NCBI GenBank assembly: GCA_027415345.1 | Contig: DAIBTC010000001.1 | Coordinates: forward strand, 12,555-76,554 | From: Nitrospirota bacterium | GTDB taxonomy: Bacteria > Nitrospirota > Leptospirillia > Leptospirillales > Leptospirillaceae | Length of the DNA stretch: 64,000 bases | Direction: 5' to 3' | Shown here: piece after piece, positions 37,667 through 45,901 of the stretch | How the letters are laid out: each line of letters opens with the position of its first letter | How positions within the stretch are numbered: position 1 is the first letter of the stretch | Notes under the pieces: model-generated | What the model saw: only the letters and a program-made list of their open reading frames with translations | Told to the model about the DNA's origin: nothing | Databases searched by the model: none | Position numbers and translations under genes: made by a program

Positions 37667-38527
37667 ATGAGTGGACTGGTCATCAACACCAACGCGGCGT
37701 CTCTGGGCGCCCAATACAACCTGAACGAGACCCAGAACCGGATCAACCAGACGATCAACCGCCTGTCGTCCGGCTACCGGGTGAATGCTCCTGCCGACGA
37801 TCCGGCCGGTTATGCCATCGGGCAGGTCATGACCGCCTATATGAAGTCCGTCCAGCAGGCTGTCCGGAATGCCAATGACGGGGCAAACCTGATCCAGACG
37901 GTCGGAGGGGCCCTCCTGACCGACAACGAAATCCTGATCAAGATGAGGTCTCTTGCGATCCAGGCGGCAAACGGGACCTATAGTCCGACCGATCTGTCGA
38001 CGCTTCAGAACGAGTATCAGAATCTCATGAGTGAAATCAACCGGATTGCCAAGGTGGCCAACTTCAACGGTCGTAAGGTGCTTGACGGAAGCCTCGAGAA
38101 CGGCCTGACATTCCAGGTCGACGTCGGGACTCAGGGAGAGAACCGGCTCGTGATCGCCGTTCCTTCCATCAGCAGCGACGTCCTGGGACTTTATAACGGG
38201 AGCACCCTTGTCATGCCCCTCGGGATGACCTCGGTCATCAACGGCGACATGGCCCTGTCGGCTATCTCGGCCATTGATGGCGCGCTCGACGAGCTGAACC
38301 GCATTCAGGGAACCCTGGGCGCCTTCCAGCAGAGAATGACCTGGACGATCCGGAACCTGAACACGGCCCTTGTGAACATTGCCGCGACCAAGTCCCAGAT
38401 CAAGGACGCCAACTTTGCCAAGGAGACCTCACGATTCGTCAGGGACAGGATCCTCCAGCAGTCGGGAACGGCGGTCCTTGCCCAGGCCAACCAGATTCCC
38501 CAGGCGGCCATCAAGCTGATTCCCTAA
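37667..38527 (+). CDS. fliC: flagellin paralog 1 (286 aa)
   Basis: MSGLVINTNAASLGAQYNLNETQNRINQTINRLSSGYRVNAPADDPAG and C-terminal LQQSGTAVLAQANQIPQAAIKLIP. SD TAGGAGG; ATG 37667, not the listed 37313 start that overlaps flgJ. Confidence 0.95.
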   Translation: MSGLVINTNAASLGAQYNLNETQNRINQTINRLSSGYRVNAPADDPAGYAIGQVMTAYMKSVQQAVRNANDGANLIQTVGGALLTDNEILIKMRSLAIQAANGTYSPTDLSTLQNEYQNLMSEINRIAKVANFNGRKVLDGSLENGLTFQVDVGTQGENRLVIAVPSISSDVLGLYNGSTLVMPLGMTSVINGDMALSAISAIDGALDELNRIQGTLGAFQQRMTWTIRNLNTALVNIAATKSQIKDANFAKETSRFVRDRILQQSGTAVLAQANQIPQAAIKLIP

Positions 38528-38564: not shown

Positions 38565-38592
38565 TAAAGTCTGAAGTGTGAAATGCCGATAG
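38565..38592 (+). promoter_or_regulatory. sigma-28 promoter of the flgM operon
   Basis: TAAA-N16-GCCGATAG (consensus TAAA-N15-GCCGATAA), 44 nt upstream of the flgM ATG. Confidence 0.65.
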
Positions 38593-38635: not shown

Positions 38636-38980
38636 ATGAGTGACCCCAAGGTGACGCCTTCGGGATCGGCCCGGATTCCGGACCGGCCTGAGAAGCTGGC
38701 CAAAAAATCGGGTGTCGGCGAAACCGGCAATGAAGGGAAGAAGGCTCCGGACAAGGCGGCCCGTCTCGTGGAGTCCGACGTCCTGGAGATATCGGGACCG
38801 GCGAGACAGGTGGCCCGGTTGCGCGAGGAGTTGTCCAAAGTGCCCGAGGTTCGTGAGGAACGGATCGCCGAGTTGCGTGAGCGGATCAAGGACGGGATCT
38901 ATTCCGTCCCCGCCAGCCTGGTGGCGAAAAAAATGATTGCATGGGGAAAAAACCACGGAGGAGCCTCCTCCGGCAGCTGA
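38636..38980 (+). CDS. flgM: anti-sigma-28 factor FlgM
   Basis: C-terminal VREERIAELRERIKDGIYSVPASLVAKKMI FlgM signature; small disordered N-terminus. Confidence 0.85.
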   Translation: MSDPKVTPSGSARIPDRPEKLAKKSGVGETGNEGKKAPDKAARLVESDVLEISGPARQVARLREELSKVPEVREERIAELRERIKDGIYSVPASLVAKKMIAWGKNHGGASSGS

Positions 38981-41182: not shown

Positions 41183-42121
41183 ATGATTCGGGTCACAGGG
41201 CTGATGACCGATCGCTCCCTCATGGCAAACCATGACCGTGCCACGGAGAATCTTTATGAAGCGGAGCGCCAGGTCTCGTCAGGGAAGAGAGCCGACACTC
41301 CGGGTGATGCCCCGGAGGCCGTGAGCGAGGTTCTCCGGATCAACCGTTCGCTGGCGGTGACGGGCCAGATCATCCAGAATGCCCGTGAAGGGGCCAGCCG
41401 GATCTCCCTTATGGAAAGCATTCTGACCCAGATCGATAATGTGATGATCCGGGCCAAAGGGCTGGCCATTCGCCAGGCCAACGGGACGATGGATGCCGAA
41501 GACCGGCGGATCGCCGCCGAGGAGGCGGCCCGTCTTCTGGAGCAGACAGTGGCCCTGGCCAATACCCGGGGAGGGGAGCAATACCTTTTCGGGGGAACAA
41601 ACATCAGCATTCCTCCCTTTCTTCTTGGGGATCCGCAAAAAGAGCCCTTTGTCGTCTCCTACAAGGGCAATCACAGGAGCTCGACCATCCAGCAGGGGTT
41701 CACCCCCAGTTTCCGCCAGGCGGGACTTATGAAGACGACCGTCTCGGGAGACAGGATTCTGGGGGACTCAAAGAAAAATCCCGATGCGAACCTGGCCTTC
41801 CCGGCCCTCAGGCGTTTTGTCCTGGGGCTCAGGAGCAATGACGAGGTGGCCATCCACAATGCCATCGGAGAGCTCGATCTGGCTATCCGGTCCATCTCCG
41901 AGCGTGCTGCGGTCCTGGGAACCTACGAGAGGTCTCTCAGAAGCACCATCGCGAGACTCGAAAAATACCGGACCGACCTCAAGGTTCTGAGGAGCGAAAC
42001 GGAGGATGTGGACATCCCCAAGGCGGCTTCTCGCATGGCCTTGTCCCAGAACCTGCTTGAGGTGTCGGCCAAGGCGAGCCGGAACATCCTCCAGAATGTC
42101 CAGAACGTTCTTTTTCACTAG
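41183..42121 (+). CDS. flgL: hook-filament junction protein FlgL (HAP3)
   Basis: Flagellin-like N and C termini (MIRVTGLMTDRSLMANHDRA...; DIPKAASRMALSQNLLEVSAKASRNILQNV); follows flgK. Confidence 0.9.
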   Translation: MIRVTGLMTDRSLMANHDRATENLYEAERQVSSGKRADTPGDAPEAVSEVLRINRSLAVTGQIIQNAREGASRISLMESILTQIDNVMIRAKGLAIRQANGTMDAEDRRIAAEEAARLLEQTVALANTRGGEQYLFGGTNISIPPFLLGDPQKEPFVVSYKGNHRSSTIQQGFTPSFRQAGLMKTTVSGDRILGDSKKNPDANLAFPALRRFVLGLRSNDEVAIHNAIGELDLAIRSISERAAVLGTYERSLRSTIARLEKYRTDLKVLRSETEDVDIPKAASRMALSQNLLEVSAKASRNILQNVQNVLFH

Positions 42122-42151
42122 AAGAGACGTTCCTTTGAAGGGAGAAGGCCC

Positions 42152-42391
42152 ATTCTTATCCTGACACGTAAGATCGGGGAGGGAATCCGGATCGGCCATT
42201 CGGTTCACGTCGTTGTTCTGGAGGTGAAGGGGGGGGCGGTCCGGATCGGGATCGAGGCTCCGGACGGCGTCCTCATTCACCGGGACGAGGTTCTGGCCCG
42301 GATCACGGAGGAGAACAGAAAAGCGACCGGGACCTCCCGGGACAGGGTGGAGGGAGAGACCGTGATTCCCCCCCAAACAGGAGGGAGTTCG
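42152..42391 (+). CDS. csrA: carbon storage regulator CsrA, apparent ATT start, no stop codon (reads into fliW)
   Basis: ILILTRKIGEGIRIGHSVHVVVLEVKGGAVRIGIEAPDGVLIHRDEVLARITEEN is a complete CsrA core. There is no ATG/GTG/TTG between the flgL stop and GTG 42224. SD GGGAG lies 7 nt before ATT 42152. The frame stays open into fliW. Confidence 0.7.
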
Positions 42392-42853
42392 ATGAAGACC
42401 TTCGACACCAGGCGATTCGGGAAGATTCCGGTCGAGGACGAGAGGGTCATTGTCTTCCCCGACGGTCTACTGGGATTCCCGTCCTCCCGAAGGTTTGTCC
42501 TCCTCGAAACGGCCGAAAACGGGTTCTTCTACTGGCTCCAGTCCATTGACGATCCCTCCCTCGCCTTTGTCGTCATCGATCCCGTGCTCCTGGTTCCCGA
42601 CTACAAAAGTCGTCTCGTGCTTCCGGAATGGGATCGGGATTTTTTTGAGCCTGAGGGGCCCTCCACTCTTCATGCCATGGCGATTGTCACCTTCCCCGAA
42701 GGGGACGACGCCAGAGCAACGGCAAACCTGCAGGGGCCGCTGCTCGTCCGGGAGAGCGATCGCCTGGGCCGTCAGGTCGTTCTCGCCGAATCGGATGCCT
42801 GGCTTCGAATGCCCGTCTTTCCTCCGGAGGACAGAAGCGGGGGAGCTTCCTAA
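42392..42853 (+). CDS. fliW: flagellar assembly factor FliW (CsrA antagonist)
   Basis: MKTFDTRRFGKIPVEDERVIVFPDGLLGFPSSRRFVLLE...FYWLQSIDDPSLAFVVIDP; own SD AGGAGGGAG before ATG 42392. Confidence 0.9.
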   Translation: MKTFDTRRFGKIPVEDERVIVFPDGLLGFPSSRRFVLLETAENGFFYWLQSIDDPSLAFVVIDPVLLVPDYKSRLVLPEWDRDFFEPEGPSTLHAMAIVTFPEGDDARATANLQGPLLVRESDRLGRQVVLAESDAWLRMPVFPPEDRSGGAS

Positions 42854-42877
42854 AGTTTTCCGGGATCCTGCCGAAGA
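42851..42877 (+). promoter_or_regulatory. sigma-28 promoter of flagellin 2
   Basis: TAAAGTTT-N11-GCCGAAGA versus consensus TAAAGTTT-N11-GCCGATAA. The -35 TAA is the fliW stop codon. Confidence 0.75.
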
Positions 42878-42935
42878 GATCCTTGGAACGGTGAGGACCG
42901 TTGTCCCGGTTGAGTCGCCGGGTGACCAAGGACAA

Positions 42936-42967
42936 GGCCAGGGATGAGGCCGGAAAACCCAAGGAGG
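42936..42967 (+). promoter_or_regulatory. candidate CsrA binding sites in the flagellin-2 leader
   Basis: Hairpin GGCC-AGGGATGA-GGCC presents GGA in its loop. A second GGA lies within the SD AAGGAGG (42961-42967). More GGA motifs occur at TGAGGAC and CAAGGAC upstream. Confidence 0.4.
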
Positions 42968-42972
42968 GTACC

Positions 42973-43800
42973 ATGAGCGGTTTGATCATCAACGACAACA
43001 TGGCATCGCTGAATGCCCAGTACAATCTGAACGAGACCCAGCGTGCCTTAAACAAGCACATTAACCGGCTCTCCTCAGGCTACCGCGTGAACACTCCCGC
43101 GGACGATCCTGCCGGGTATTCGATTTCCCAGCGCATGGGAGGTCAGATAAAATCCTATGCGGCGGCGATCCGGAATGCCAATGACGGATCGGCACTTCTG
43201 CAGACGGCGAACGGGGCCCTTCAGACCGACAACACCATTATTCTGAAGATGCGACAGCTGGCCATCGAGGCGGCCAACAGCACCTATTCGCCAAAGGATC
43301 TCAAGGTCTTGAATCAGGAGTACCAGCATCTAAAGTCGGAAATCACGCGTATCGCGAAAGTGACCGACTTCAACGGGATGAAGCTTCTTGATGGAAGCCA
43401 TCAGGACTTCAAGTTTCACGTCGGTATCTACACGACCTTCAGCGACCGGTTGCATGTCAAAGTTGGAAAGCTGGATTCCGATGAGCTGGGAATAAGCGGG
43501 ACAGATATCCTAAACCGCAATGATGCCAAGCATTCGGTGGACCAGCTCGACAAGGCCCTCGACCGGATCAACGAACTGCAGGGAAACATCGGTGCCATCC
43601 AGAACCGGATGGAATGGACGATCCGGAACCTGAACACCGCAACGACCAATGTCCAGGCGAGCCGTGCCGGAATCCGGGACGTGGATTTCGCCGGAGAAAC
43701 CGCCAAATTTACAAAACGCCAGATCCTGTCCCAGTCCGGCGCCGCCGTGCTGGCCCAGGCGAACCTTATTCCACAGGCAGCCATCAAACTGCTCCCTTAG
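42973..43800 (+). CDS. fliC: flagellin paralog 2 (275 aa)
   Basis: MSGLIINDNMASLNAQYNLNETQRALNKHINRLSSGYRVNTPADDPAG and C-terminal LSQSGAAVLAQANLIPQAAIKLLP. ATG 42973 follows SD AAGGAGG; the listed start 42901 lies in the leader. Confidence 0.95.
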   Translation: MSGLIINDNMASLNAQYNLNETQRALNKHINRLSSGYRVNTPADDPAGYSISQRMGGQIKSYAAAIRNANDGSALLQTANGALQTDNTIILKMRQLAIEAANSTYSPKDLKVLNQEYQHLKSEITRIAKVTDFNGMKLLDGSHQDFKFHVGIYTTFSDRLHVKVGKLDSDELGISGTDILNRNDAKHSVDQLDKALDRINELQGNIGAIQNRMEWTIRNLNTATTNVQASRAGIRDVDFAGETAKFTKRQILSQSGAAVLAQANLIPQAAIKLLP

Positions 43801-45454: not shown

Positions 45455-45901
45455 ATGACGCATCATGCCGCCGCAACCTATCGCCAGACCATGGAAAGTA
45501 CCATCTCCCCCGCCGATCTCCTGATCCGCCTGTATGAGGGAGCTGTCCGGTGCGTGGACCTCATCAAGGAATCCTCCCGGACCGGAGACATTTCCCGGAA
45601 GGCCGATGCTGTCAACAGGCTGACGGGAATTCTTTCGGAGCTGGCCTCCGCCGTGGACGGCCAGGATCCGAGAGATCTTTCCGATTCCCTCGTCTCCCTG
45701 TACCTTTTCCTCATCCAGGAGGTGACCCTGGCCAATGTGGCCGGGGAGACCTTCCGCCTTGATCCCGTCCGGGAAATCCTGTCCGAGCTTCTCGGAACGT
45801 GGAAGAAAGCGGCCAGTGCCTCCAGGATTCCCCCCATGGGGACGACCCCGACGGCTGGCGTCCCCGAAATTCCACGTCGGTCCCTGTCGGTGCGCGGATG
45901 A
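45455..45901 (+). CDS. fliS: flagellin chaperone FliS
   Basis: YRQTMESTISPADLLIRLYEGAVRCVDLIKE... four-helix FliS pattern; follows fliD; SD GAGAGGA. Confidence 0.85.
   Translation: MTHHAAATYRQTMESTISPADLLIRLYEGAVRCVDLIKESSRTGDISRKADAVNRLTGILSELASAVDGQDPRDLSDSLVSLYLFLIQEVTLANVAGETFRLDPVREILSELLGTWKKAASASRIPPMGTTPTAGVPEIPRRSLSVRG

What the first reader, a model, noticed from the sequence alone, without database searches (positions are those of the whole stretch)
42122..42853. csrA has neither a canonical start nor a stop: an AUU-aligned CsrA reads in frame into FliW across a C7 tract
After the flgL stop (42119-42121) the same frame encodes a full CsrA core (ILILTRKIGEGIRIG...VRIGIEAPDGVLIHRDEVLARITEEN). 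There is no in-frame ATG, GTG or TTG before GTG 42224. Starting at 42224 would delete the beta1 strand (LILTR), which carries conserved RNA-binding residues. The codon aligned with the usual Met of MLILTR is ATT (42152), 7 nt downstream of GGGAG. At the 3' end there is no stop. The frame runs through a 25-aa linker into FliW, which has its own strong SD (AGGAGGGAG) and ATG 42392. The result is one 233-aa ORF (42152-42853, stop included). The linker contains a C7 homopolymer (42368-42374). Deleting one C makes CsrA end ..VIPPKQEGVR at a TGA overlapping the fliW ATG (ATGA coupling), which is the textbook arrangement. The options are a homopolymer base-calling error, a slippage-prone tract toggling between free and tethered antagonist, or a genuine CsrA-FliW fusion. 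The csrA-then-fliW order is also the reverse of B. subtilis fliW-csrA. A covalently tethered regulator/antagonist pair would be a new twist on the flagellin-FliW-CsrA partner switch.
Basis: partly seen in the sequence, partly recalled or inferred. Interest (0 to 1): 0.8.

Follow-up and report, generated by a model that had tools for sequence, protein, structure and literature searches.

The report
Natural CsrA–FliW fusion, AUU start
In this Leptospirillum-like bacterium the flagellin translation repressor CsrA and its protein antagonist FliW are encoded as a single conserved protein that starts at a rare AUU codon, so it is a real and apparently undescribed one-polypeptide version of a known flagellar feedback switch, not a sequencing error.

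Summary

- **Reading frame.** After the flgL stop, one frame runs from ATT 42152 to TAA 42853. It encodes a full CsrA core, a 22-residue variable tail and a full FliW.
- **Not a C7 artefact.** The same in-frame fusion is found in 15 relatives' loci from independent assemblies (9 distinct sequences, 63-95% protein identity). Their linkers differ. The C-run is C7 here, C8 in L001, broken in L002 and absent elsewhere, and the frame is always kept.
- **Origin.** Fused lineages are monophyletic (99% bootstrap). Their sister lineage and Leptospirillum proper carry separate csrA and fliW genes overlapping by ATGA. This points to a single ancestral fusion.
- **AUU start.** ATT is invariant at the Met position in all fused lineages except one derived ATG lineage, and also in the unfused outgroups. 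A Shine-Dalgarno sequence lies 6-7 nt upstream, and coding constraint begins at codon 2.
- **Selection.** dN/dS is 0.00-0.18 for CsrA, 0.06-0.21 for FliW and 0.12-1.08 for the linker.
- **Interface and target.** The CsrA-FliW contact residues are kept. The downstream flagellin gene has a sigma-28-like promoter and a conserved leader rich in GGA motifs.
- **Inferred mechanism.** A tethered, self-inhibited flagellin sensor; free FliW may also be made from the retained internal SD+ATG.

I found no paper describing natural CsrA-FliW fusions.

The parts
41183..42121 (+). flgL (hook-filament junction protein). Its stop, TAG 42119-42121, lies 30 nt upstream of the csrA-fliW start.
   Evidence: Flagellin_N and Flagellin_C hits, 312 aa. 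The gene order flgM-flgN-flgK-flgL-csrA/fliW-fliC-fliD-fliS is shared with relatives. flgL is in the same frame as csrA only in the window's subclade, not in L010 or L014. Readthrough of the flgL stop is therefore not a conserved route into csrA.
42140..42144 (+). Shine-Dalgarno sequence (GGGAG) for the AUU start, with a 7-nt spacer.
   Evidence: A GGGAG, GGAGG or GAGGGGG motif sits 6-7 nt upstream of the first codon in every relative, whether that codon is ATT or ATG.
42152..42154 (+). ATT (AUU) initiation codon of the csrA-fliW ORF.
   Evidence: It aligns with Met1 of CsrA. ATT is found in the window, L001-3, L010-17, L021, and in the unfused L022/23 and Leptospirillum L024/25. ATG occupies the same position in L004/5. 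ATT is never replaced by ATC or ATA, although ATC makes up 70% of Ile codons here and the Ile at codon 3 does vary between ATC and ATT. The sequence upstream is not conserved as protein, and the frame relative to flgL varies between lineages.
42152..42325 (+). CsrA core (residues 1-58): beta1 LILTR, R44, helix 44-59 with I51 and N55.
   Evidence: Pfam and TIGRFAM scores are above their cutoffs. There is a gap-free alignment to CsrA/RsmA structures. dN/dS is 0.00-0.18. Codons 2-24, upstream of the first canonical GTG, show 264 synonymous against 133 non-synonymous codon differences. L2, L4, R6, R44 and N55 are invariant across 24 fusion proteins.
42326..42391 (+). Variable tail and linker (residues 59-80). 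This is the former C-terminal extension of CsrA, now continuous with FliW. It contains the C7 run (42368-42374).
   Evidence: AF2 pLDDT is below 50 for residues 60-78. dN/dS is 0.12-1.08. Sequence and length vary among relatives but the frame is always kept. The C-run is C7 here, C8 in L001, interrupted in L002 and absent elsewhere.
42379..42394 (+). Internal SD (AGGAGGGAG, 42379-42387) and ATG (42392-42394). This is the ancestral fliW start, and a possible internal initiation site for free FliW.
   Evidence: A start codon is kept at this position in all nine distinct fused relatives: ATG in eight and GTG in L014. All have a purine-rich SD-like motif 4-11 nt upstream, although the encoded residues differ. 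The unfused L022 and L024 have the same SD+ATG overlapping the csrA stop as ATGA. NCBI annotates 153-aa and 145-aa FliW proteins from this ATG in some MAGs. Use of this start is inferred, not shown.
42392..42853 (+). FliW domain (residues 81-233) and the stop codon TAA 42851-42853.
   Evidence: Pfam FliW scores 103 bits. The AF2 domain has pLDDT 70-88 and matches the FliW structures 5DMB_A, 5DMD and 2AJ7 with TM 0.82-0.89 and rmsd 2.0-2.5 A. dN/dS is 0.06-0.21. The equivalents of the B. subtilis/Geobacillus CsrA-contact residues F58, N108, G122 and Q124 are F139, N192, G206 and Q208, all invariant. K123 corresponds to R207.
42851..42877 (+). Sigma-28-like promoter of the flagellin gene (TAAAGTTT-N11-GCCGAAGA). 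Its upstream element includes the stop codon of the fusion ORF.
   Evidence: It is conserved in all relatives, and L022 has GCCGATAA. The pattern TAAAG-N14/15-GCCGA occurs twice in the window against 0.07 expected by chance. The other copy lies upstream of flgM. The consensus it is compared with comes from general knowledge of FliA promoters.
42887..42902 (+). Leader hairpin 1, with GGA in the loop (loop TGAGGA). Candidate CsrA site.
   Evidence: RNAalifold predicts the helix. Three of its five pairs show compensatory double changes in 3-4 sequences, and the GAGGA loop is conserved.
42936..42951 (+). Leader hairpin with loop AGGGATGA (GGA at 42942-42944). Candidate CsrA site.
   Evidence: The GGCC/GGCC stem is invariant in 10 loci. 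Leptospirillum L024 has GGTCC-AAGGATT-GGACC at the homologous place. An unpaired GGA at 42930-42932 (CAAGGACAAGG) is also conserved.
42961..42975 (+). Flagellin SD (AAGGAGG, 42961-42967, contains GGA) and ATG (42973-42975).
   Evidence: CCAAGGAGGG is invariant in all 11 aligned leaders.
42973..43800 (+). Flagellin gene (fliC/hag-like, 275 aa). Presumed mRNA target of the CsrA domain, and its product is the presumed ligand of the FliW domain.
   Evidence: Flagellin_N scores 128 bits and Flagellin_C 82 bits. A flagellin gene immediately follows csrA-fliW in every relative of the clade.

Best explanation
Positions 42152-42853 are one genuine gene. Translation starts at AUU 42152 and gives a 233-aa protein made of three parts: a complete, RNA-binding-competent CsrA; its former C-terminal tail, now a disordered linker of about 22 residues; and a complete FliW.

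The gene arose once, in the ancestor of a Leptospirillum group-IV-like clade. The starting point was the ATGA-overlapping csrA-fliW pair still present in sister lineages, and a frame change removed the csrA stop. The AUU start is older than the fusion and is shared with Leptospirillum proper.

Inferred mechanism:
- The protein dimerises through its CsrA domain.
- Each tethered FliW docks on the CsrA helix around I51/N55 and holds CsrA off RNA.
- Unsecreted flagellin binds the FliW domains. This frees the CsrA dimer to bind the GGA hairpins and the SD in the leader of the adjacent sigma-28-driven flagellin mRNA, and so to repress its translation.
- Export of flagellin reverses this.

The tether fixes the regulator:antagonist ratio at 1:1 per chain. 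The weak AUU codon keeps the CsrA-containing product scarce. The retained internal SD+ATG probably adds free FliW from the same reading frame.
For: SHOWN
1. The ORF is continuous, with both domains above their family cutoffs.
2. The fusion is conserved in frame in L001-5, L010-17 and L021. These come from independent NCBI, ENA and Logan assemblies at 63-95% identity. Their linkers differ, indels are multiples of three, and the C-run is not conserved.
3. Fused loci are monophyletic (99% bootstrap on FlgK+FlgL). Unfused L022 is the sister and Leptospirillum L024 the outgroup, both with an ATGA overlap.
4. Both domains are under purifying selection: dN/dS is 0.00-0.18 for CsrA and 0.06-0.21 for FliW. 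This includes codons 2-24, which lie upstream of any canonical start. The linker is relaxed.
5. ATT is invariant at codon 1 or replaced by ATG, with an SD 6-7 nt upstream in all loci. ATT accounts for only 25% of Ile codons.
6. Interface residues are kept. On CsrA these are I51 and N55. On FliW they are F139, N192, G206, R207 and Q208, which correspond to F58, N108, G122, K123 and Q124. Their roles in B. subtilis and C. jejuni come from bioRxiv 10.1101/2020.07.02.184341 and PMC7829508.
7. In C. jejuni the last 15 residues of the CsrA tail are dispensable for FliW binding (PMC7829508). The tail can therefore serve as a linker. AF2 predicts it to be disordered.
8. The flagellin leader has a conserved sigma-28-like promoter, two GGA-loop hairpins (one with compensatory changes) and a GGA-containing SD.
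9. In B. subtilis, strict FliW:CsrA stoichiometry is needed and is enforced by translational coupling (PMC6529632). This gives a rationale for a fusion.

INFERRED: dimerisation, docking of the tethered FliW, displacement by flagellin, weak AUU initiation and use of the internal start.
Against: - No expression or protein data exist. All loci are from metagenome-assembled genomes.
- The residue at CsrA position 41 is L here, R in the L010 clade and V in the distant clade. In B. subtilis this position is D41, which forms a salt bridge with FliW K123 that is needed for inhibition though not for binding. The allosteric step may therefore differ or be weaker.
- The FliW P26 equivalent is L107 in the window.
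- The AF2 monomer model gives low confidence for the CsrA domain (pLDDT 50-68) and no usable information on contacts between the domains.
- The fliC leader fold is not significantly more stable than shuffled sequences (z = -1.1).
- A permanently tethered antagonist could keep CsrA off at all times unless flagellin competes effectively.
- Other CsrA-FliW fusion clades lie outside flagellar loci, so the fusion is not necessarily tied to flagellin.
Confidence: 0.75

Rival explanations
1. Dual-product gene in which the fusion is secondary. The main functional output is free FliW from the internal SD+ATG (42379-42394). The AUU-initiated full-length protein is a minor species, so the system still works mostly as separate partners.
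For: SD+ATG (GTG in L014) is kept in all fused lineages although the surrounding amino acids vary. It is the ancestral fliW start. AUU is a poor initiator in model bacteria (general knowledge). NCBI calls FliW from this ATG in some MAGs.
Against: There is no free CsrA in this scheme, because every CsrA chain carries a FliW. The fusion is therefore the only CsrA form whatever its abundance. The CsrA core is under strong purifying selection. Distant fusion clades have no Met at the junction, so the fused protein works without an internal start. Retention of the SD and ATG could be partly historical, or could reflect selection for Gly-rich linker residues.
Confidence: 0.4
2. Homopolymer base-calling or assembly error. 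The true sequence has C6, and csrA and fliW are separate genes coupled by ATGA.
For: Removing one C would give a CsrA ending at a TGA that overlaps the fliW ATG. That is exactly the arrangement seen in L022 and L024.
Against: The same fusion occurs in 15 independently assembled loci of relatives (9 distinct sequences). Only two have any C-run, and L001 has C8 and is still in frame because of a flanking substitution. Loci with no run at all (L003-5, L010, L014, L017, L021) are also fused. A 99%-identical fused protein cluster has 22 member sequences.
Confidence: 0.02
3. Slippage-prone C7 tract (phase variation, transcriptional slippage or programmed frameshifting) that toggles between free and tethered CsrA.
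For: A C7 run lies inside the linker, and a +1-frame TGA overlaps the ATG in the window and in L001-L005.
Against: Outside the window the tract is present only in L001, is interrupted in L002 (CCT CCC C) and is absent in the rest of the clade. The ATGA is lost in L010, L014, L017 and L021. No frame-shifted variant was found among relatives. C7 is short for efficient slippage (general knowledge).
Confidence: 0.03
4. The csrA part is untranslated or decaying, or translation starts at GTG 42224 and gives an N-terminally truncated, RNA-binding-defective CsrA remnant attached to FliW.
For: There is no canonical start before 42224. Automatic gene callers produced 201-216-aa truncated models (P0001, P0004-6, P0010-14).
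Against: Codons 2-24 are under clear coding constraint. LILTRK is invariant while its codons vary, and there are 264 synonymous against 133 non-synonymous codon differences. dN/dS for residues 2-58 is 0.00-0.18. An SD is positioned for ATT. L004 and L005 have ATG at exactly that codon. The position and kind of downstream canonical start codons differ among lineages.
Confidence: 0.03

Closest known systems
Hag-FliW-CsrA partner-switch of Bacillus subtilis (also FlaA-FliW-CsrA in Campylobacter jejuni and FliC-FliW-CsrA in Clostridioides difficile)
   Same: - A FliW-type CsrA with a C-terminal extension and N55.
- A FliW with the N108/Q124-type contact residues.
- Both are encoded together in a late flagellar locus next to a flagellin gene.
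- The flagellin leader carries GGA motifs in hairpin loops and over the SD.
   Different: - The two proteins are one polypeptide, so the ratio is fixed at 2 FliW per CsrA dimer. B. subtilis has about 1 FliW per dimer (PMC6529632).
- The gene order is csrA then fliW.
- csrA starts at AUU.
- The CsrA D41-FliW K123 salt bridge is not conserved (L41/R207).
- No experiment has been done on this system.
Crystal structure of the FliW-CsrA complex of Geobacillus thermodenitrificans (PDB 5DMB)
   Same: The FliW domain model superposes on 5DMB_A with TM 0.89 and rmsd 2.0 A. Both chains of the entry are sequence-matched by the single ORF: 5dmb_A at E = 3e-15 and 5dmb_D at E = 2.5e-10.
   Different: The crystal contains two separate chains, here joined covalently. 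Whether the 22-residue tail allows docking on the same chain, or forces docking across the dimer, could not be tested.
AUU-initiated bacterial genes (infC, pcnB of E. coli; infC of B. subtilis)
   Same: A conserved ATT at the first codon, a normally placed SD, and no canonical alternative start. Such genes are normally expressed at a low, IF3-sensitive level (general knowledge).
   Different: csrA has not been reported among them. No paper in the library links CsrA with an AUU or ATT start codon. IF3 dependence is untested here.
ATGA-coupled csrA-fliW of Leptospirillum and of the sister lineage (L022-L025)
   Same: Orthologous locus with the same neighbours, the same ATT start, the same fliW SD+ATG and the same type of flagellin leader.
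   Different: There csrA ends at a TGA that overlaps the fliW ATG, so two proteins are made. In the window's clade the stop has been lost.
Other database proteins with a CsrA+FliW architecture (P0026-P0051, P0121-P0251)
   Same: The same domain order and the same invariant interface residues.
   Different: - They are 30-43% identical to the window protein.
- Their linkers are about 35 residues long.
- They use canonical GTG, TTG or ATG starts and have no Met at the junction.
- The four loci inspected sit in non-flagellar neighbourhoods: mfd, surA, hdr-like, fdh, serA, asnB.
- They probably arose by independent fusions.

Membership tests
CsrA/RsmA family (Pfam PF02599, TIGR00202) | Profile score above the curated cutoff | tested here: met
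   PF02599 scores 65.9 bits against a cutoff of 27. TIGR00202 scores 80.2 against 70.1.
CsrA/RsmA family (Pfam PF02599, TIGR00202) | Conserved RNA-binding residues in beta1 (L2, L4, R6) and R44 | tested here: met
   LILTR and HR44 are present and invariant in 24 fusion proteins. There is a gap-free alignment to E. coli, Yersinia and Pseudomonas CsrA/RsmA structures. The roles of these residues come from general knowledge.
CsrA/RsmA family (Pfam PF02599, TIGR00202) | Interdigitated homodimer that binds GGA-containing RNA | not testable with these tools
   Only a monomer could be modelled, with pLDDT 50-68 for the CsrA part. Candidate GGA sites exist in the fliC leader.
FliW family (Pfam PF02623) | Profile score above the cutoff, and the FliW fold | tested here: met
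   PF02623 scores 103 bits against a cutoff of 25. Foldseek gives TM 0.82-0.89 to 2AJ7, 5DMD, 5JAK and 5DMB_A. The NCBIfam FliW equivalog models are all below their strict cutoffs (for example 105.5 against 223). It is therefore a family member but not an equivalog of the curated subgroups.
FliW family (Pfam PF02623) | Residues needed for CsrA binding and inhibition in B. subtilis (P26, F58, N108, A111, K123, Q124) | tested here: inconclusive
   F139, N192 and Q208 are identical and invariant. K123 corresponds to R207, A111 to G195 and P26 to L107 in the window; the L010 clade and the distant clade have P at that position.
Flagellin-FliW-CsrA partner-switch system | CsrA of the FliW-regulated type (C-terminal extension, N55 and I/V51 in the helix) | tested here: met
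   I51 and N55 are present, and N55 is invariant. A helix spans residues 44-59.
Flagellin-FliW-CsrA partner-switch system | Flagellin mRNA leader with CsrA sites, one of them overlapping the SD | tested here: met
   There are two conserved GGA-loop hairpins, plus AAGGAGG as the SD. One hairpin has compensatory changes. This is met at the sequence level only. Binding was not tested.
Flagellin-FliW-CsrA partner-switch system | CsrA and FliW are separate, freely exchanging polypeptides | tested here: not met
   A single ORF without an intervening stop is conserved across the clade. This is the defining difference, so the locus is filed as a variant.
Flagellin-FliW-CsrA partner-switch system | Core-proximal salt bridge (CsrA D41-FliW K123) required for allosteric inhibition in B. 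subtilis | tested here: not met
   CsrA position 41 is L (R or V in other fusions), opposite R207.
Flagellin-FliW-CsrA partner-switch system | FliW binds flagellin in competition with CsrA | not testable with these tools
   This needs binding assays or multimer modelling.
Genes initiated at AUU | Conserved coding sequence begins at an ATT, with an SD and no in-frame canonical start upstream | tested here: met
   In L010 (-27) and L017 (-15) there are upstream ATGs, but they are not conserved in sister loci and lack an SD.
Genes initiated at AUU | Direct evidence of initiation (N-terminal peptide, toeprint, initiation-site profiling) | not testable with these tools
   No expression data are available.
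Phase-variable homopolymer (contingency) locus | Tract length differs among close relatives and switches the reading frame | tested here: not met
   C7, C8, an interrupted run and no run are all in frame. No frame-shifted relative was found.

The most novel reading that the evidence does not exclude
One reading frame encodes the whole flagellin-homeostasis module as two nested products. The first is a scarce, AUU-initiated CsrA-FliW protein that inhibits itself. The second is a more abundant free FliW, made from the internal SD+ATG, which buffers flagellin. CsrA would then be released onto the fliC leader only once flagellin has saturated both FliW pools. The AUU start, conserved across the whole class Leptospirillia, would tie CsrA dosage to initiation fidelity (IF3). 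In other phyla the same fusion has been moved out of flagellar loci, which suggests FliW-gated CsrA regulation of non-flagellar targets.
Probability: 0.35. Interest if true: 0.75.

Novelty: new variant of a known kind. Interest (0 to 1): 0.62.

Why it matters
The CsrA-FliW-flagellin switch is the best-studied case of a protein antagonist of CsrA. It is known to depend on exact stoichiometry, which B. subtilis enforces by translational coupling.

A natural covalent fusion, conserved and under selection, offers several things:
- It is independent evolutionary evidence for the interaction, of the gene-fusion ("Rosetta stone") kind.
- It is an extreme solution to the stoichiometry problem.
- It provides a ready-made single-chain construct for asking how FliW inhibits CsrA and how flagellin displaces it when the antagonist cannot diffuse away.

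The class-wide AUU start of csrA adds a clean, comparatively supported case to the short list of bacterial genes that use a non-canonical initiation codon.

It also explains why this gene is mis-annotated in most MAGs. It is truncated to 201-216 aa, or split off as a 145-153-aa FliW. As a result the CsrA of these organisms is largely missing from protein catalogues.

Tried and rejected
- **flgL readthrough into csrA.** Rejected. flgL is in the csrA frame only in the window's subclade, not in L010 or L014.
- **Upstream ATGs as starts.** The ATGs in L010 (-27) and L017 (-15) are not conserved in sister loci and have no SD.
- **Stability of the fliC leader.** Folding the leader alone gave no significant stability (z = -1.1). 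I relied on the alignment and covariation instead.
- **Rfam.** There is no family hit anywhere in the window, so the leader is not a curated RNA family.
- **Domain docking from AF2.** The monomer model gave a good FliW domain, a poor CsrA domain and a disordered linker. No contact information is returned, and a dimer cannot be submitted.
- **C6/C7/C8 variants in metagenomes.** An exact search for the window's junction with each run length in JGI metagenome contigs found nothing. There is therefore no strain-level data on tract length.
- **Bootstrap values.** They were meaningless because of a rooting artefact. They were recomputed with rooted replicates.
- **Literature.** Three searches found no paper on natural CsrA-FliW fusions or on an AUU-start csrA. 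The library lacks the two 2016 PNAS papers and the 2011 Mol Microbiol paper. A passing mention there cannot be excluded.
Full report
**1. The observation**

- flgL (41183-42121) ends at TAG. The same frame then stays open for 244 codons, to TAA 42851-42853.
- The first in-frame canonical start is GTG 42224.
- The translation contains a complete CsrA. Pfam gives 65.9 bits against a cutoff of 27, and TIGR00202 gives 80.2 against 70.1. Profile positions 2-53 match, starting at the codon after ATT 42152.
- It also contains a complete FliW, at 103 bits against a cutoff of 25.
- GGGAG lies 7 nt upstream of the ATT. The C7 run is at 42368-42374. AGGAGGGAG (42379-42387) precedes ATG 42392.
- One small correction: that Met is residue 81 counted from the ATT.

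**2. The fusion is real, not an artefact of the C7 run**

A protein search returned many two-domain CsrA+FliW proteins. I fetched the DNA of relatives from three sources: NCBI MAGs, ENA assemblies and Logan assemblies.

All loci of the clade (L001-L005, L010-L017, L021) have one continuous frame. They are 63-95% identical to the window at protein level.

The linker differs in sequence and length between them:
- GETVIPPQTGGSS in the window
- GETLLPASSGGKS
- [13 protein letters not shown]
- GGGLRPAADGGGK
- SGGVPQAVGTTGKGRES
- GGGVLQTPKEGREK

The C-run is C7 in the window. It is C8 in L001, which is still in frame because the preceding codon is ATC rather than ATT. It is interrupted in L002 and absent in all the others. 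A base-calling error or a slippage switch at this tract therefore cannot explain the architecture.

**3. Origin of the fusion**

They are the nearest unfused relatives (L022/L023, FliW 67% identical) and Leptospirillum proper (L024/L025). In both, csrA ends at a TGA that overlaps the fliW ATG (ATGA), preceded by a strong SD.

A neighbour-joining tree of the flanking FlgK+FlgL proteins (874 columns) gives this picture:
- All fused loci fall in one clade, with 99% bootstrap support.
- L022 is the sister lineage.
- Leptospirillum is the outgroup.

A single loss of the csrA stop is the simplest history. A cluster member is named Leptospirillum sp. Group IV 'UBA BS', which places the clade.

**4. 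The AUU start**

- The codon aligned with Met1 is ATT in the window, L001-3, L010-17 and L021. It is also ATT in the unfused L022/23 and in Leptospirillum L024/25. It is ATG only in L004/L005, a derived pair within the tree.
- An SD (GGGAG, GGAGG or GAGGGGG) sits 6-7 nt upstream in every case.
- The sequence upstream is not conserved as protein. The frame relative to flgL differs between subclades, so readthrough of the flgL stop is not the route into csrA.
- Coding constraint begins at codon 2. LILTRK is invariant while its codons vary (CTT/CTG/CTC/TTA, ACA/ACG/ACC, CGT/CGA/AGA/CGC).
- Codons 2-24 lie upstream of any canonical start. They show 264 synonymous against 133 non-synonymous codon differences among eight lineages.
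- ATT is never replaced by ATC or ATA, although ATC makes up 70% of Ile codons in this window and the Ile at codon 3 does alternate between ATC and ATT.
- The upstream ATGs in L010 and L017 are lineage-specific and have no SD.
- NCBI's own model for L021 (P0009, 232 aa, starting with M) uses this ATT.

I regard AUU initiation as well supported by comparison, though not shown biochemically.

**5. Both halves are functional**

Selection:
- CsrA residues 2-58: dN/dS 0.00-0.18.
- FliW: dN/dS 0.06-0.21.
- Linker: dN/dS 0.12-1.08.

Structure:
- The AF2 model gives a FliW domain with pLDDT 70-88. It superposes on 5DMB_A, 5DMD and 2AJ7 with TM 0.82-0.89.
- The linker is disordered (residues 60-78, pLDDT below 50).
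- The CsrA part has low confidence, as expected for a monomer of an obligate dimer.

Interface residues:
- CsrA keeps the RNA-binding residues, plus I51 and N55. N55 is the residue that contacts FliW Q124 in B. subtilis. V51 and N55 are the two residues required in C. jejuni.
- FliW keeps the equivalents of F58, N108, G122 and Q124 (F139, N192, G206, Q208), all invariant in 24 fusion proteins. It has R207 in place of K123.
- Two differences stand out. CsrA position 41 is L rather than the D that forms a salt bridge with K123 in B. subtilis. The equivalent of FliW P26 is L107.

In C. jejuni the last 15 residues of the CsrA extension are dispensable for FliW binding. This fits the idea that the tail now serves as a linker.

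**6. The target**

The flagellin gene (42973-43800) follows directly.
- The stop codon of the fusion ORF is part of TAAAGTTT-N11-GCCGAAGA (42851-42877), a sigma-28-type promoter. It is conserved in all relatives.
- That pattern occurs twice in the window against 0.07 expected by chance. The other copy lies upstream of flgM.
- The leader of about 95 nt contains a hairpin at 42887-42902 with loop TGAGGA. Three of its five pairs change on both sides in the L010/L014/L021 group while the loop is kept.
- It also contains a conserved unpaired CAAGGACAAGG.
- A second hairpin at 42936-42951 has loop AGGGATGA. Leptospirillum has GGTCC-AAGGATT-GGACC at the homologous place.
- The SD is an invariant AAGGAGG.

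This is the arrangement of CsrA sites described for the B. subtilis hag leader (PMC13443453). Binding itself is inferred.

**7. Mechanism (inferred)**

- The protein should dimerise through CsrA.
- Each chain brings its own FliW, which docks at the I51/N55 helix and keeps CsrA off RNA.
- Cytoplasmic flagellin binds FliW and releases CsrA onto the fliC leader.
- Secretion of flagellin reverses this.

In B. subtilis the system depends on precise FliW:CsrA stoichiometry, enforced by translational coupling, and it is hypersensitive to excess CsrA (PMC6529632). A fusion hard-wires the ratio, and a weak AUU start limits CsrA dosage.

The ancestral fliW SD and start codon are retained inside the ORF in all fused lineages. 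The codon is ATG everywhere except L014, where it is GTG, which is still a start codon. The neighbouring residues vary. This suggests that free FliW is also made. I put this at about 40%.

**8. Distribution and novelty**

An exhaustive representative search plus local domain HMMs gave these counts at the 50%-identity cluster level:
- about 16 clusters with CsrA-FliW
- one with FliW-CsrA
- one with CsrA-CsrA-FliW
- six with FliW-FliW tandems

The four distant fusion loci I inspected lie in non-flagellar neighbourhoods. The architecture is therefore present in databases and recurrent.

Full-text searches found no paper describing a natural CsrA-FliW fusion or an AUU-start csrA. Three key subscription papers could not be read.

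Annotation is inconsistent. The gene appears as truncated 201-216-aa models, as 145-153-aa 'FliW', or as a 232-aa 'CsrA'.

**9. Verdict**

This is a genuine, conserved, selected gene fusion of a regulator with its antagonist. It has a class-wide non-canonical start codon. It is a new variant of a known system and does not represent a new kind of system.

The sequence-level claims are close to certain. The tethered partner-switch mechanism and the nested second product are reasoned inferences that need protein-level tests.

Noticed in passing
L018 6001-6759, L019 4294-5052, L020 827-1540, L026 6001-6669: Distant CsrA-FliW fusion proteins (33-37% identical to the window's) sit in non-flagellar neighbourhoods: mfd/surA/aspS with hdr-FlpD-like genes, formate dehydrogenase, and serA/asnB/ccm. 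They use GTG, TTG or ATG starts and have no Met at the domain junction. This suggests independent fusions, possibly with non-flagellar roles.
   Followed up: partly
Proteins P0184, P0220, P0124, P0126, P0129, P0154, P0156, P0267: Other unusual architectures turned up in the representative library: one FliW-CsrA (reverse order), one CsrA-CsrA-FliW, and six FliW-FliW tandem proteins of 260-326 aa.
   Followed up: no
window 38565-38589: A second sigma-28-like promoter match (TAAAGTCT...GCCGA) lies about 50 nt upstream of flgM (38636-38980). This fits a FliA/FlgM class-III circuit in this organism.
   Followed up: partly
window 37668-38527 and 42973-43800: There are two flagellin paralogues, 56% identical. 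The upstream one directly follows a small ORF, with only a GGAGG SD and no long leader. Only the paralogue downstream of csrA-fliW has the conserved GGA-hairpin leader and its own sigma-28-like promoter.
   Followed up: partly
window 42229-42236 and 42640-42646: The same ORF contains two more homopolymers, a G8 run inside the CsrA core (codons for KGG) and a T7 run inside FliW. Relatives have G6-G8 and T6 at the same places, all in frame.
   Followed up: partly
window 45799-46284: A 161-aa ORF after fliS has no Pfam hit. A gene of similar size without a Pfam hit occupies the same position in relatives (L010 7797-8279, L021 7768-8265). It may be a FliT-like or other flagellar chaperone.
   Followed up: no
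window 1-64000: No Rfam family reaches its gathering score anywhere in the 64-kb window. The window is 59% G+C and largely a flagellar gene cluster (flgF/G, flgA, flgH, flgI, flagellin, flgM, flgN, flgK, flgL, csrA-fliW, fliC, fliD, fliS), followed by glycosyltransferase/methyltransferase genes.
   Followed up: partly
Database entries P0001, P0004-6, P0010-14, P0271, P0273, P0009: The orthologues are annotated inconsistently. Gene callers truncate them to internal GTG or ATG starts (201-216 aa). NCBI lists 153-aa and 145-aa 'FliW' models that start at the internal ATG, and one 232-aa 'CsrA' that uses the ATT start. In most of these MAGs no CsrA is annotated at all.
   Followed up: yes
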